Shown here: one piece after another, positions 6,060 through 58,522 of the stretch
Numbering within the stretch: the stretch's first letter is position 1
Layout of the letters: each line of letters opens with the position of its first letter
NCBI RefSeq assembly: GCF_009914755.1
Contig: NC_060927.1
From: the human T2T-CHM13v2.0 reference genome, Homo sapiens
Length of the DNA stretch: 64,000 bases
Strand: one strand, 5' to 3'
Position numbers and translations under genes: made by a program
The notes under the pieces: model-generated
Seen by the model: only the letters and a program-made list of their open reading frames with translations
Database searches by the model: none
Told to the model about the DNA's origin: nothing

Positions 6060-6600
6060 CGAAAAAATTAAAATTAAAAAACAAACAAACCAGGCGCAGA
6101 GCGGTTGTGGAGAAGGGAAGCGAAGGGTTGGAGTTTCGTTTCGTGGGAACCATAGAGAAGGGCCAGCCTCCCGGCTTCCTAGAGAGGCTGTAGGGACCGA
6201 CGGCCGGCCAGCTAATGCTTCCGTCTTGGCCACCTTGCGAGCGCTCGGGTTGAGTTTCCCGGGCTTCCCTGACTCGGCTACCTGTTCTGGAGGTCAGGCT
6301 TTGGGCCCTTGCAGAGGTCGCCGAGGGGCCCGCGCCGCCGCCAGAGCCTGGGCCCAGTCCCCAGTCTTCAGAGACGCCCTCGACCTTCCTGCTCCGAAGA
6401 GCTGGCCTGATGTCCTCGGGTCGCGGTATTCATGGGGAGGATGGGAGCCGTGACTATAGGGTCTCCTGCTTCCCAGGGTGGAGCGTTCAGATCCCGGTTA
6501 GGTCTTCGGTCAGCATCACCCGCTGGGACATTAAGCGTCTTACCCTTGTCACCCGGGGCTGGGTCACCACTTATATTTTGTCCTGCAGCCTGTGGTTTGT
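6060..6600 (+). promoter_or_regulatory. ZNF619: CpG-rich promoter and non-coding exon 1 of ZNF619 (predicted donor after 6425)
   Basis: High CpG/GC content; ETS-like GCTTCCG at 6217-6223; donor CGCG|GTATTC aligns with the ZNF621 donor CCCG|GTACTG; downstream intron homologous to 54365-54440. Confidence 0.75.
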
Positions 6601-7047
6601 TTAGGGGTCCCCGTTATATCCTACTTTCTCTCCAGAGACTTGTTTTGGGTTTTTGCCATGAACACTAGAAGCATTCAATACAAACTGTTTAGTAATGCAT
6701 TCATAGTGGGGCCAAGAATTTTTTTTAAAAAACAGCCACGAATCCACTGCAGTTCTTGACTCTTACTTTACAGATATTCTTTCTAGAGTTTCCAGTGTCA
6801 CCAAGCAGATCTATAGGAGAATATGCAGAGGGAGCATTTGCAACATCCCATGAATCAGTGGAGAGGGTGAATGACAGCAGCTAGTGTGCCAAGAATATCT
6901 GCAATGCTAGTGGCAGGAGACAGAGGGGAAGAGGCGGCAAGTGTAGGAGACGAGACAGATCAGTCTCATTGTGGTTCTCTCTTAGCTCCGCAGGTTCTTA
7001 CTTTTCCAAACCTAGAGGGCAGTGCATGAAGCCAGGGGTCATCAGCC

Positions 7048-7071
7048 ATGCTCCAGACAGTGTGGTTCCAG
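7048..7071 (+). CDS. ZNF619: ZNF619 first coding segment MLQTVWFQ (exon about 6986-7071)
   Basis: CAGCCATG context, CAG|GTGAGC donor, phase 0; paralogous to MFQTAWRQ and MLQTTWPQ. Confidence 0.9.
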
Positions 7072-10884: not shown

Positions 10885-11481
<597 letters not shown>

Positions 11482-11657: not shown

Positions 11658-11774
11658 CAGCATTTCCATTCCCCAAACCAGATCTGATATTCCAGCTGGA
11701 GCAAGGAGAAGCAGCATGGGGCCCAGATCCCTGGACACTTGCTGGGGGAGAGGCCCTGAGAGGCATGTGCACAG
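11658..11774 (+). CDS. ZNF619: ZNF619 KRAB-B exon (NAGNAG acceptor, start 11658 or 11661)
   Basis: FPFPKPDLIFQLEQGEAAWGPDPW...; polypyrimidine tract then TAGCAG; ACAG|GTGAGC donor; 117 or 114 nt, phase 1-1. Confidence 0.93.
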
Positions 11775-11999: not shown

Positions 12000-15790
<3,791 letters not shown>

Positions 15791-15877: not shown

Positions 15878-17313
15878 GTGGTAAAACCAAGACTGAGAAT
15901 GAGGAAAAAACTGCACAGCTAAACATTTCTAAAGAATCAGAGTCCCACAGACTGATAGTGGAGGGACTGCTGATGGACGTTCCCCAGCACCCTGACTTCA
16001 AGGACAGGTTAGAGAAGTCACAGCTACATGATACAGGGAATAAAACAAAGATAGGGGATTGCACAGATTTGACAGTCCAGGATCATGAATCTTCCACCAC
16101 TGAAAGGGAGGAGATAGCCAGGAAATTGGAAGAAAGTAGTGTCAGCACACATCTCATTACAAAGCAGGGTTTTGCCAAAGAACAGGTGTTTTATAAATGT
16201 GGTGAGTGTGGCAGTTACTACAACCCACATTCAGACTTTCACCTGCATCAGAGAGTTCACACTAATGAGAAGCCCTACACATGCAAAGAATGTGGGAAAA
16301 CCTTCAGATATAACTCAAAACTGTCACGGCATCAGAAAATCCACACTGGAGAGAAACCATACTCATGTGAGGAATGTGGACAAGCCTTCAGTCAAAATTC
16401 CCACCTTCTTCAGCATCAGAAGCTCCATGGTGGACAGAGGCCCTATGAATGTACTGACTGTGGTAAAACCTTCAGTTATAATTCAAAACTGATTCGGCAT
16501 CAGAGAATCCATACTGGGGAGAAGCCCTTTAAATGTAAGGAATGTGGGAAAGCCTTCAGTTGTAGCTATGACTGCATCATCCATGAACGAATTCACAATG
16601 GGGAGAAGCCCTATGAATGTAAGGAGTGTGGGAAGAGTTTGAGTTCTAATTCAGTTCTGATTCAGCATCAGAGAATCCACACTGGGGAGAAACCTTATGA
16701 ATGTAAAGAGTGTGGCAAGGCCTTCCACCGCAGTTCGGTATTTCTTCAGCACCAGAGGTTCCACACTGGGGAACAACTCTACAAATGTAATGAATGTTGG
16801 AAAACTTTCAGCTGTAGCTCCCGCTTCATAGTGCATCAGAGAATCCACAATGGGGAGAAACCCTATGAATGCCAGGAATGTGGGAAGACATTCAGTCAAA
16901 AGATCACTCTGGTTCAGCATCAGCGAGTTCACACTGGGGAGAAACCTTATGAGTGTAAGGAGTGCGGGAAAGCCTTCAGATGGAATGCAAGTTTCATCCA
17001 GCATCAGAAGTGGCATACTAGGAAGAAACTCATCAATGGAACAGGGCTATCCGCAGTTAAGCCCTACTGTCCCTGCGCCATCCTCTCTCCTCTGCCTCCC
17101 CAACATACCTGCTCTGCCCTAGCCCCACCAGGGCCTCCCTTATCTTCTTCACATGCAGTGGTACTTCCTCCCTCTGTGCCTTTCTTCCTGCTGCTTCCCT
17201 CATCTGAAAAGGCCAACCCTTCACCTGTCCAAATAGCACATTTTTTTCAGGATCTCGCTTTTCCTGGGAAGTCATCCCTTCAGAGCCCGAATCCTTTGTC
17301 TCACTCCCTGTAA
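15878..17313 (+). CDS. ZNF619: ZNF619 zinc-finger exon: spacer, 10 C2H2 fingers, Pro/Ser-rich tail
   Basis: ORF 15871..17313 with CxxC-x12-HxxxH repeats and TGEKP linkers; acceptor CTAG| before 15878; spliced CDS gives 566-576 aa depending on acceptor choice. Confidence 0.95.
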
Positions 17314-35350: not shown

Positions 35351-35432
35351 AATCTCACCGGTGCTTCTTTATTTTCTCTTCAGTTTCACTTCTCCGAACC
35401 CTGAGGCAGTGTGTGAAGCTGGGACGCCAGCC

Positions 35433-40527: not shown

Positions 40528-40755
<228 letters not shown>

Positions 40756-54450: not shown

Positions 54451-54889
54451 AGCCACCCCAGTCCCTCTTCTCCTGAGGTTCTTTCTTTTGGGTCCACGTC
54501 ATCGTCCCTGTAAGCATTCTGTAAAGACTCTTTACGTTTGTAGAGACCCAACACAATAGGGACAGGGCTCTTGGGTCCCTCAGTTTACCCGTACGAATGG
54601 GCTCAAAAAAAGCTCTTCGGACTGAGCAGGCAGGTGGAAGATTGTCCTGAAGACTAGGCAGAACAATTCATAAGAAGTTTGGGGCTATCAGCGTGAGAAC
54701 AATTAGAGGGAGTCCTAGTAGAATCTCCGTGCATCCAGTGCTGGAAATGTGGAAACTGGGAGGGCCATAGGTTGCTGTAGGTGGTGGACGACAGGGTCCT
54801 TAGCACTCATGGCTCTTTTTCTCTTAGCTCTTGAGGATCTTGCTTGTCCAAACCCAGAAGACAGTGCATGAAGCCAGGGGACATCCGCC

Positions 54890-54913
54890 ATGCTCCAAAC
54901 AACTTGGCCTCAG
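54890..54913 (+). CDS. ZNF621: ZNF621 first coding segment MLQTTWPQ (exon 54828-54913)
   Basis: CCGCCATG context; CTTAG| acceptor; CAG|GTGAGC donor. Confidence 0.92.

Positions 54914-58027: not shown

Positions 58028-58522
<495 letters not shown>

What the first reader, a model, noticed from the sequence alone, without database searches (positions are those of the whole stretch)
7026..7071. Dual-ATG frame switch in ZNF619: an upstream ATG becomes in-frame exactly when KRAB-A is skipped
Seen: an ATG at 7026 lies 22 nt before the main ATG, reads MKPGVISHAPDSVVP without a stop, and leaves the exon in phase 1 (46 nt). Spliced to KRAB-A it stops after 20 codons (GGA GCC AGT AAC CTT TGA), so it is an overlapping uORF in a weak Kozak context (T at -3, A at +4). 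The KRAB-B and finger exons both begin in phase 1, so skipping the 127-nt KRAB-A exon puts this ATG in frame with all 10 fingers (46+117+1436 nt = 532 aa; 493 aa if KRAB-B is skipped too). Established: KRAB-A recruits TRIM28/KAP1, and skipping it normally frameshifts. Inference: one exon encodes two N-termini, giving either a repressor or a KAP1-blind competitor for the same DNA sites. Such an isoform may already be annotated; the conserved logic is the point.
Basis: partly seen in the sequence, partly recalled or inferred. Interest (0 to 1): 0.8.

Follow-up and report, generated by a model that had tools for sequence, protein, structure and literature searches.

The report
Old upstream ATG in ZNF619 start exon
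An upstream start codon 22 bases before the normal ZNF619 start is real and old, and it would start a repressor-domain-less finger protein if the KRAB-A exon is skipped, but this is a familiar kind of isoform and its use in humans is unproven.

Summary
ATG 7026 lies 22 nt before the main ATG 7048, is open for 46 nt to the exon end, and has T at -3 and A at +4. With the KRAB-A exon it is a short out-of-frame overlapping uORF. Without the exon it opens 532-aa or 493-aa ORFs carrying all 10 fingers.

The ATG is old. ZNF621 has the same ATG, context and spacing, while ZNF620 lost both. Six of seven non-human ZNF619 protein models that cover the site keep the methionine. Orangutan, Miniopterus and Pteropus models already join this frame directly to KRAB-B.

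Against a tuned switch: horse spacing is 21 nt, and the ATG is lost in Pteronotus ZNF619, Miniopterus ZNF621 and human ZNF620. Shuffled leaders give such an ATG in 7-28% of trials. The stronger main ATG downstream predicts mostly a 17-codon ORF and NMD on skipped mRNA.

KRAB-less isoforms are known (ZNF71, ZNF224/ZNF255, ZNF268, ZNF74). Human splice junctions, initiation and KAP1 binding could not be tested. Verdict: real, conserved, modestly interesting.

The parts
6986..7071 (+). ZNF619 exon 2 (86 nt), the start exon. It is open in two frames: the main frame from 7048 and the upstream-ATG frame across the whole exon.
   Evidence: Hub annotation; (the upstream-ATG frame is open for 92 codons upstream through exon 1, with no further ATG in that frame).
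7026..7028 (+). Upstream ATG in weak context (T at -3, A at +4). It sits inside the only TGCATG hexamer between exon 1 and exon 5.
7026..7071 (+). 46-nt segment read from the upstream ATG (15 codons plus 1 nt); it leaves the exon in phase 1.
7048..7050 (+). Annotated main ATG (G at -3, C at +4). The 24 nt of CDS in this exon end in phase 0.
   Evidence: Hub annotation.
10933..11086 (+). KRAB-A exon, 154 nt as annotated. Acceptor 10960 (127 nt) is the position homologous to ZNF620/ZNF621. Both lengths are 1 mod 3.
   Evidence: Pfam KRAB PF01352 E=5.8e-26.
10974..10976 (+). TGA that ends the overlapping uORF (29 codons on the annotated mRNA). It lies 110 nt before the exon 3 end.
11658..11774 (+). 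KRAB-B exon (117 nt; 114 nt from acceptor 11661), phase 1 to phase 1.
   Evidence: It had no Pfam hit on its own. The KRAB-B label rests on position and on the FPFPKP-type motif, which is recalled.
11685..11687 (+). Stop reached from the main ATG when exon 3 is skipped (17-codon ORF). It lies 87 nt before the exon 4 end.
15878..17313 (+). Coding part of the last exon: linker plus 10 C2H2 fingers, entered in phase 1.
54868..54913 (+). Homologous upstream ATG in ZNF621 exon 2. It has the identical 10-nt context, is 22 nt before the main ATG 54890, and is open to the exon end.
35413..35432 (+). Homologous position in ZNF620: GTG instead of ATG, and 20 nt instead of 22 nt to the main ATG. The feature is lost here.

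Best explanation
ATG 7026 is a genuine and old upstream start codon in the start exon shared by ZNF619 and ZNF621. What it does depends on splicing.

On the usual mRNAs that contain KRAB-A, it opens a short out-of-frame ORF (29 or 20 codons) that overlaps the main start and ends inside the KRAB-A exon. Its context is weak, so most scanning ribosomes should pass it and start at 7048. The minority that start at 7026 are lost to the main ORF and terminate far upstream of two exon junctions. The expected net effect is mild damping of ZNF619 output.

On mRNAs that skip the KRAB-A exon, the main ATG gives only a 17-codon ORF. There 7026 is the only ATG that reaches the fingers, giving 532 aa with KRAB-B and 10 fingers but no KRAB-A. 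Annotation pipelines have already written this ORF for orangutan and two bats.

I expect the KRAB-A-less protein to be a minor product.

Shown: the sequence, the frames, conservation in the paralogue and in orthologue models, and predicted models using this frame. Inferred: leaky scanning, NMD, low yield, and loss of KAP1 binding.
For: - Frames and ORF lengths.
- Contexts: 7026 has T at -3 and A at +4; 7048 has G at -3 and C at +4.
- uORF stop is 110 nt before the exon 3 end. The main-ATG stop on skipped mRNA is 87 nt before the exon 4 end.
- Paralogues: 1 of the 2 in the window (ZNF621) keeps the ATG, context and 22-nt spacing.
- ZNF619 versus ZNF621 identity: 31 of 40 in the exon-2 leader before the ATG, and 20 of 22 from the ATG to the main ATG. 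Flanking introns give only 113 of 215 and 116 of 224 aligned columns. The leader is therefore constrained or converted.
- Orthologues: 24 related protein models were fetched and 7 non-human ones cover the site. Six of the seven have Met there: Pongo, Pteropus, Miniopterus, Diceros, Bubalus, Equus. In 5 of the 7 the ORF starts further upstream, so the site is visible whether or not it is ATG; 4 of those 5 have Met.
- KRAB-A-skipped models in this frame: P0012 begins MKPGVISHAPDSVVPAAFPFPKPDLI. P0019 and P0024 show the same junction.
- KRAB-A is the corepressor-binding box and KRAB-B only enhances it (passages of PMC3731817).
- A preprint reports that a T-to-A change at Kozak -3 'in ZNF619' lowered a luciferase readout (10.1101/2024.02.26.582217, passages). 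This fits a strengthened 7026 stealing ribosomes. However, ATG 11007 also has T at -3, so the site is ambiguous.
Against: - No transcript, ribosome-profiling or peptide data for human were reachable.
- The hub table does not say whether any of the 11 RefSeq transcripts skips exon 3.
- The Met is no better conserved than its neighbours in the same block, so the constraint may not be on the ATG itself.
- Horse has 21-nt spacing (ATG in frame with the main ATG). Pteronotus ZNF619, Miniopterus ZNF621 and human ZNF620 lack the ATG.
- Two earlier upstream ATGs (6215 and 6410) precede it in exon 1 and complicate any scanning prediction.
- Protein models are predictions. Those that start at this ATG were chosen by pipelines because the ORF is long, so they do not show translation.
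Confidence: 0.55

Rival explanations
1. Exon 2 is a selected two-frame switch. Splice choice at KRAB-A is coupled to start-codon choice so that the gene makes either a KAP1-recruiting repressor or a KAP1-blind finger protein that competes for the same DNA sites. This logic is maintained by selection in the ZNF619/ZNF621 lineage.
For: - The same ATG, context and 22-nt spacing occur in ZNF621.
- The +1 frame relation is kept in Pongo, Pteropus, Miniopterus and Diceros, and in Bubalus after a 3-nt shortening.
- Three models join this frame to KRAB-B (P0012, P0019, P0024).
- The gene also has a second annotated-type route to a finger protein without in-frame KRAB: ATG 11007 plus the 50-nt exon 12744-12793, giving 560 aa, mirrored by P0007 and P0015. 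KRAB-less output is thus a recurring theme at this locus.
Against: - The weak context at 7026 and the better ATG 22 nt downstream predict low yield and NMD of the skipped mRNA (inference).
- Spacing is broken in horse. The ATG is lost in Pteronotus ZNF619, Miniopterus ZNF621 and human ZNF620.
- 7-28% of shuffled leaders have such an ATG by chance.
- The exon 3 splice sites look ordinary: acceptors with pyrimidine tracts and a GTAAGT donor.
- ZNF255, the KRAB-less form of ZNF224, has strongly reduced DNA binding and a different localisation rather than acting as a simple competitor (PMC8537547 passages).
Confidence: 0.2
2. The conserved feature is a nucleotide-level element in exon 2 and the ATG is incidental. 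Candidates are an RBFOX-type UGCAUG site, an exonic splicing element, or a promoter-proximal DNA element. On this view neither the uORF nor the alternative start matters.
For: - The ATG lies inside TGCATG. That is the only such hexamer in 9.8 kb of ZNF619 (exon 1 to exon 5) and the only one in 7.2 kb of ZNF621.
- A 19-nt block around it is identical between ZNF619 and ZNF621.
- Neighbouring residues (Gln-Cys before the Met) are as conserved as the Met across models.
- Third codon positions of the KRAB-A exon are as alike between paralogues (37 of 42) as first and second positions (77 of 85). This points to nucleotide-level constraint or gene conversion in these exons.
Against: - The reading of TGCATG as an RBFOX site is recalled and was noticed after the fact.
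- Known RBFOX sites that control an exon are usually intronic and near it (recalled).
- ZNF620 lacks the hexamer.
- No significant RNA structure: the whole exon has z +1.47, and the three 3' segments have z 0.23, -1.23 and -0.21.
Confidence: 0.15
3. Neutral leftover. The ATG arose by chance in the ancestor of ZNF619 and ZNF621 and simply has not yet decayed in most lineages.
For: - The chance rate is 7-28% per leader.
- There are several independent losses or spacing changes.
Against: - Introns flanking exon 2 are at random-alignment level between paralogues (about 52% of aligned columns), while the 22 nt from the ATG to the main ATG are 20 of 22 identical.
- The Met is seen in four mammalian orders.
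Confidence: 0.1

Closest known systems
Overlapping upstream ORFs (uoORFs) in mammalian 5' leaders
   Same: An ATG in the annotated 5' leader that is out of frame with the main ORF, with its stop downstream of the main ATG, in a weak Kozak context that allows leaky scanning.
   Different: Here the same ATG becomes the only productive start when one coding exon is skipped. Translation of this uORF was not tested.
KRAB-less isoforms of KRAB zinc-finger genes: ZNF71 (PMC8038441, passages); ZNF224/ZNF255 and ZNF268a/b (PMC8537547, passages); ZNF74 (PMC3731817, passages)
   Same: A separate KRAB exon is left out and the finger array is kept. The published cases show differences in repression and localisation between the isoforms.
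   Different: In ZNF71 the shorter protein is described as encoded by the last exon. Here the frame is rescued by an upstream ATG in the start exon and KRAB-B is retained. No experimental data exist for ZNF619.
Predicted ZNF619-locus models in other mammals: P0012 (Pongo pygmaeus, named 'ZNF620 isoform X4'), P0019 (Miniopterus natalensis ZNF619 X2), P0024 (Pteropus alecto, 112 aa)
   Same: The same reading frame of exon 2 is joined directly to KRAB-B with KRAB-A absent. P0012 and P0024 start at the homologous ATG.
   Different: P0012 is a ZNF619-ZNF620 read-through model. P0019 starts at a further-upstream ATG in the same frame. All three are computational predictions and none is human.
ZNF252 (PMC2865497, passages)
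   Same: A KRAB zinc-finger gene in which the KRAB-A exon is not in the same frame as the finger ORF in human transcripts.
   Different: There the cause is an extra exon and a degenerating gene, not an alternative start codon in the start exon.

Membership tests
KRAB-C2H2 zinc-finger gene, canonical exon plan | KRAB-A box on its own exon | tested here: met
   Pfam PF01352 E=5.8e-26 on the translation of 10933-11085.
KRAB-C2H2 zinc-finger gene, canonical exon plan | Tandem C2H2 fingers on the last exon | tested here: met
   Ten C-x2-C-x12-H-x3-H units; Pfam zf-C2H2 and zf-H2C2_2 hits.
KRAB-C2H2 zinc-finger gene, canonical exon plan | KRAB-A exon length 1 mod 3, with the downstream coding exons entered in phase 1 | tested here: met
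   154 or 127 nt in ZNF619 and 127 nt in ZNF620 and ZNF621; that is 3 of 3 genes in the window.
Overlapping upstream ORF | ATG in the 5' leader, out of frame, with its stop downstream of the main ATG | tested here: met
   ATG 7026 and stop 10974-10976 on the annotated mRNA.
Overlapping upstream ORF | Ribosomes initiate at it | not testable with these tools
   No ribosome-profiling data were available. Supplementary tables of an ORF catalogue (PMC13010147) could not be opened. The preprint's -3 mutation result is ambiguous between 7026 and 11007.
Overlapping upstream ORF | Start codon conserved in relatives | tested here: met
   Kept in ZNF621. Met is present in 6 of 7 non-human models that cover the site. 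Lost in ZNF620, Pteronotus ZNF619 and Miniopterus ZNF621.
KRAB-less splice isoform of a KRAB zinc-finger gene | Transcripts that skip the KRAB-A exon exist | not testable with these tools
   No human transcript data. Three predicted models in other species have the junction. The hub table cannot show a pure exon-skipping transcript.
KRAB-less splice isoform of a KRAB zinc-finger gene | A long ORF that keeps the finger array | tested here: met
   532, 531 and 493 aa from ATG 7026.
KRAB-less splice isoform of a KRAB zinc-finger gene | The product fails to bind KAP1/TRIM28 | not tested
   Inferred from loss of the A box (role of the A box: PMC3731817 passages). No complex prediction was run.
Dual-coding (two-frame) exon under selection | Both frames are open and both are used in protein models | tested here: met
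   The main frame is used in P0001, P0003, P0005, P0011, P0013, P0016 and P0021. The upstream-ATG frame is used in P0009, P0012, P0019, P0020, P0023 and P0024.
Dual-coding (two-frame) exon under selection | Frame relation (spacing 1 mod 3) preserved across species | tested here: inconclusive
   Kept in Pongo, Pteropus, Miniopterus, Diceros and Bubalus. Broken in Equus (21 nt) and in human ZNF620 (20 nt). Only protein models were available, not genomic DNA.

The most novel reading that the evidence does not exclude
Exon 2 of the ZNF619/ZNF621 lineage is a two-frame start exon kept since before the boreoeutherian radiation. It couples inclusion or skipping of KRAB-A to the choice between two ATGs 22 nt apart. 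The locus can then switch between a KAP1-recruiting repressor and a KRAB-A-less finger protein. On the main mRNA the same ATG acts as a damping overlapping uORF. This may be aided by the TGCATG hexamer around the ATG and by the ATGA overlap with the stop of the exon-1 uORF.
Probability: 0.2. Interest if true: 0.5.

Novelty: new member of a known kind. Interest (0 to 1): 0.3.

Why it matters
If the KRAB-A-less ZNF619 protein is really made, ZNF619 and probably ZNF621 would join ZNF71, ZNF224/ZNF255, ZNF268 and ZNF74 as KRAB zinc-finger genes with repressor and non-repressor forms.

The case would also give a clean example of one ATG acting as an overlapping uORF start on one splice form and as the CDS start on another. 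That matters for interpreting 5'-leader variants, such as changes at -3 of 7026, and for isoform-aware ChIP or knock-down studies.

The general idea is already familiar, though. KRAB exons are separately spliced, KRAB-less isoforms exist, and annotators routinely pick an alternate upstream start. The gain would be incremental.

Tried and rejected
1. A hairpin about 15 nt downstream of the upstream ATG that could boost initiation. The whole-exon fold showed a 9-bp stem over the main AUG. However, the exon folds no better than shuffles (z +1.47; 188 of 200 shuffles fold at least as well). The stem disappears when the 46-nt segment is folded alone, and the three paralogue segments give z 0.23, -1.23 and -0.21 with different structures. 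Rejected.

2. Using the Translatomer preprint as direct proof that 7026 is recognised. The text says only 'T-to-A at -3 in ZNF619'. Both 7026 and 11007 have T at -3. The evidence is kept only as ambiguous.

3. Looking for a catalogued ZNF619 or ZNF621 uORF in the supplements of PMC13010147.

4. Earlier findings of this scan were not open.

5. A family-wide test of +1 versus +2 upstream ATGs in all KRAB zinc-finger start exons. It was not attempted because the human assembly is searchable but carries no annotation of start exons.

6. A search of the whole human assembly with exon 2 found only itself and ZNF621 exon 2 (87% over 68 nt). No further paralogues were available for comparison at that sensitivity.

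7. Literature searches for this exact logic:
   - 'KRAB' + 'zinc finger' + 'alternative splicing' + 'upstream ATG' gave 1 paper, an unrelated review.
   - 'ZNF619' gave 32 papers, 25 listed. None is about isoforms by title, and only the preprint above was opened.
   - The ZNF695 paper describes KRAB-truncating variants but no rescuing upstream ATG.

8. PMC328446 (Urrutia review) is not held.

Full report
**What is there.**
ATG 7026-7028 lies 22 nt before the annotated ZNF619 start at 7048. It reads MKPGVISHAPDSVVP and leaves exon 2 (6986-7071) after 46 nt in phase 1. Its context is weak (T at -3, A at +4). The main ATG has G at -3 and C at +4.

Exon 3 carries KRAB-A (Pfam PF01352, E=5.8e-26). 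The last exon carries 10 C2H2 fingers.

One correction is needed. The selected RefSeq transcript uses acceptor 10933, so exon 3 is 154 nt. Both lengths are 1 mod 3, so the frame argument stands.

On the annotated mRNA the ORF from 7026 is 29 codons, or 20 with acceptor 10960. It stops at TGA 10974-10976.
- With exon 3 skipped it runs 532 aa (531 aa from acceptor 11661).
- With exons 3 and 4 skipped it runs 493 aa.
- The main ATG then gives only 17 or 22 codons.

**Is it more than chance?**
In one gene, no. Dinucleotide-preserving shuffles of the leader gave at least one ATG in this frame, open to the exon end, at these rates:
- 373 of 5000 for the ZNF619 exon-2 leader;
- 672 of 5000 for the whole ZNF619 leader;
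- 1385 and 896 of 5000 for the two ZNF621 leaders;
- 888 of 5000 for ZNF620, where none is observed.

Conservation is what makes it interesting.

**Paralogues in the window.**
ZNF621 has the same ATG at 54868. It shares the identical 10-nt context and the 22-nt spacing, is open to the exon end, and gives a 404-aa ORF when its KRAB-A exon is skipped. ZNF620 has GTG at the homologous place and 20-nt spacing, so the feature is lost there.

ZNF619 versus ZNF621 identity by segment:
- introns flanking exon 2: 113 of 215 and 116 of 224 aligned columns, which is random-alignment level;
- exon-2 leader before the ATG: 31 of 40;
- the 22 nt from the ATG to the main ATG: 20 of 22;
- the 24 coding nt of exon 2: 17 of 24.

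A search of the whole human assembly with exon 2 found only itself and ZNF621 exon 2.

**Orthologues.**
No mammalian genomes were at hand, but the protein database holds models of ZNF619 relatives. Three searches returned 24 proteins (sequences; tabulated). Seven non-human models cover the site:

| Species | Model | What is seen at the site |
|---|---|---|
| Pongo | P0012 | Met; model starts here |
| Pteropus | P0024 | Met; model starts here |
| Miniopterus | P0019 | Met |
| Diceros | P0020 | Met |
| Bubalus | P0009 | Met |
| Equus | P0010 | Met, one base closer to the main Met |
| Pteronotus | P0023 | no Met |

- So 6 of 7 keep the Met. In five of the seven the ORF starts further upstream, so the site is seen whether or not it is ATG. 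Four of those five have Met.
- The other 17 models do not cover the site.
- In the horse model the Met is in frame with the main Met, consistent with 21-nt spacing.
- In the buffalo model the residue after His is Ser. This excludes the main ATG at its usual place, so that model runs in the upstream-ATG frame.
- For ZNF621, read-through models show Trp at the stop-overlapping codon in camel, so the ATG is kept with G at +4. They show Arg in Miniopterus, so the ATG is lost.
- Within the conserved block the Met is no better kept than its neighbours.

**Is the isoform already written down?**
In relatives, yes. P0012 (orangutan, named ZNF620 isoform X4, a ZNF619-ZNF620 read-through model) begins MKPGVISHAPDSVVPAAFPFPKPDLI. 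That is the upstream ATG joined directly to KRAB-B with KRAB-A absent. P0024 (Pteropus alecto) has the same start and junction. P0019 (Miniopterus ZNF619 X2, no KRAB Pfam domain) has the same frame and junction from a further-upstream ATG. P0022 joins a different 5' exon to KRAB-B.

For human I could not tell. The hub table lists only exons that the selected transcript lacks, and a pure skipping transcript adds none.

**How it most likely works.**
On mRNAs that contain KRAB-A, 7026 starts an overlapping uORF. Its weak context should let most ribosomes reach 7048 (established scanning rules, recalled). Ribosomes that do start at 7026 terminate 110 nt before the exon 3 end, with two junctions downstream. 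This predicts NMD sensitivity by the 50-55-nt rule (recalled).

On skipped mRNA, 7026 is the only productive start. The better ATG 22 nt later leads to a stop 87 nt before the last junction. I therefore expect the skipped mRNA to be mostly an NMD substrate and the 532-aa protein to be minor. These steps are inference.

A preprint reports that a T-to-A change at Kozak -3 in ZNF619 lowered a luciferase readout, against the naive expectation (passages seen). That would fit a strengthened 7026. But ATG 11007 also has T at -3 and the site is not named in the text, so I give this little weight.

**Function of the product.**
Loss of the A box should remove corepressor binding, since the A box binds corepressors and the B box only enhances (PMC3731817 passages). 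Whether the protein then competes at the same sites is open. ZNF255, the KRAB-less form of ZNF224, has strongly reduced DNA binding and a different localisation (PMC8537547 passages).

**What is known.**
- KRAB-less isoforms produced by leaving out KRAB exons are described for ZNF71 (PMC8038441 passages), ZNF224/ZNF255 and ZNF268, and ZNF74.
- A survey preprint counts differential KRAB inclusion among isoform switches of C2H2 genes (10.1101/2024.11.28.625692 passages).
- I found no paper describing this ATG or ZNF619 isoforms.

**Rivals.**
Spacing and ATG losses, the chance rate and the weak context argue against it.
- A nucleotide-level element. The ATG sits in the only TGCATG hexamer of the ZNF619 and ZNF621 gene bodies. 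Third positions of KRAB-A are as conserved between paralogues as first and second positions.
- Neutral persistence.

RNA structure was tested and rejected.

**Verdict.**
This is a new member of known kinds (overlapping uORF; KRAB-less splice isoform) and already modelled in other mammals. Interest is modest.

Noticed in passing
window 11007-11086 with exons 11658-11774 and 12744-12793: A second route to a finger protein without in-frame KRAB. ATG 11007 lies inside the KRAB-A exon in another frame (T at -3, G at +4). It runs through KRAB-A and KRAB-B out of frame and is returned to the finger frame by the annotated 50-nt exon 12744-12793 (560 aa), or by the 71-nt exon 12723-12793 (567 aa). Models P0007 (Propithecus) and P0015 (pig) have this kind of N-terminus and no KRAB Pfam domain.
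   Followed up: partly
window 10933-10959: The selected ZNF619 transcript uses an acceptor 27 nt upstream of the one used by ZNF620 and ZNF621. The old pyrimidine tract and acceptor are thereby translated as 9 extra residues before KRAB-A. Models of Pongo, Saimiri, Galeopterus, Miniopterus and Microcebus include the extension. Talpa, Condylura, Elephas and Equus models do not.
   Followed up: partly
window 6410-6425 + 6986-7029: A 19-codon uORF starts in exon 1 at ATG 6410 and ends at TGA 7027-7029. That stop overlaps the upstream ATG 7026 in an ATGA arrangement. Another 12-codon uORF starts at 6215. Whether termination there affects initiation at 7026 or 7048 is unknown.
   Followed up: no
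window 7023-7028 and 54865-54870: The upstream ATG is embedded in TGCATG. This is the only such hexamer in 9.8 kb of ZNF619 (exon 1 to exon 5) and the only one in 7.2 kb of ZNF621. The corresponding span of ZNF620 has eight, none at the homologous site. TGCATG as an RBFOX-type binding motif is recalled, not tested.
   Followed up: partly
window 6190-62141 (all three genes); proteins P0012, P0016, P0017, P0018, P0006: Several predicted proteins in orangutan, a bat, camel and a whale are read-through chimeras across ZNF619, ZNF620 and ZNF621. In them the start exon of the downstream gene is read as an internal coding exon. ZNF620 exon 2 is open in the main frame over its whole length, which allows this.
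   Followed up: no
window 10960-11086, 40528-40654, 58370-58496: The KRAB-A exons of the three paralogues are about 90% identical (114 to 117 of 127). Third codon positions (37 or 38 of 42) are as alike as first and second positions (77 to 80 of 85). The introns next to them align at random level. This suggests exon-limited gene conversion or nucleotide-level constraint.
   Followed up: no
protein P0009 (Bubalus), no window coordinates: The buffalo ZNF619 model lacks the main ATG at its usual place, since His is followed by Ser in the upstream-ATG frame. It reaches KRAB-A through the upstream-ATG frame plus an extra exon. This suggests start-codon turnover at this exon in ruminants.
   Followed up: no
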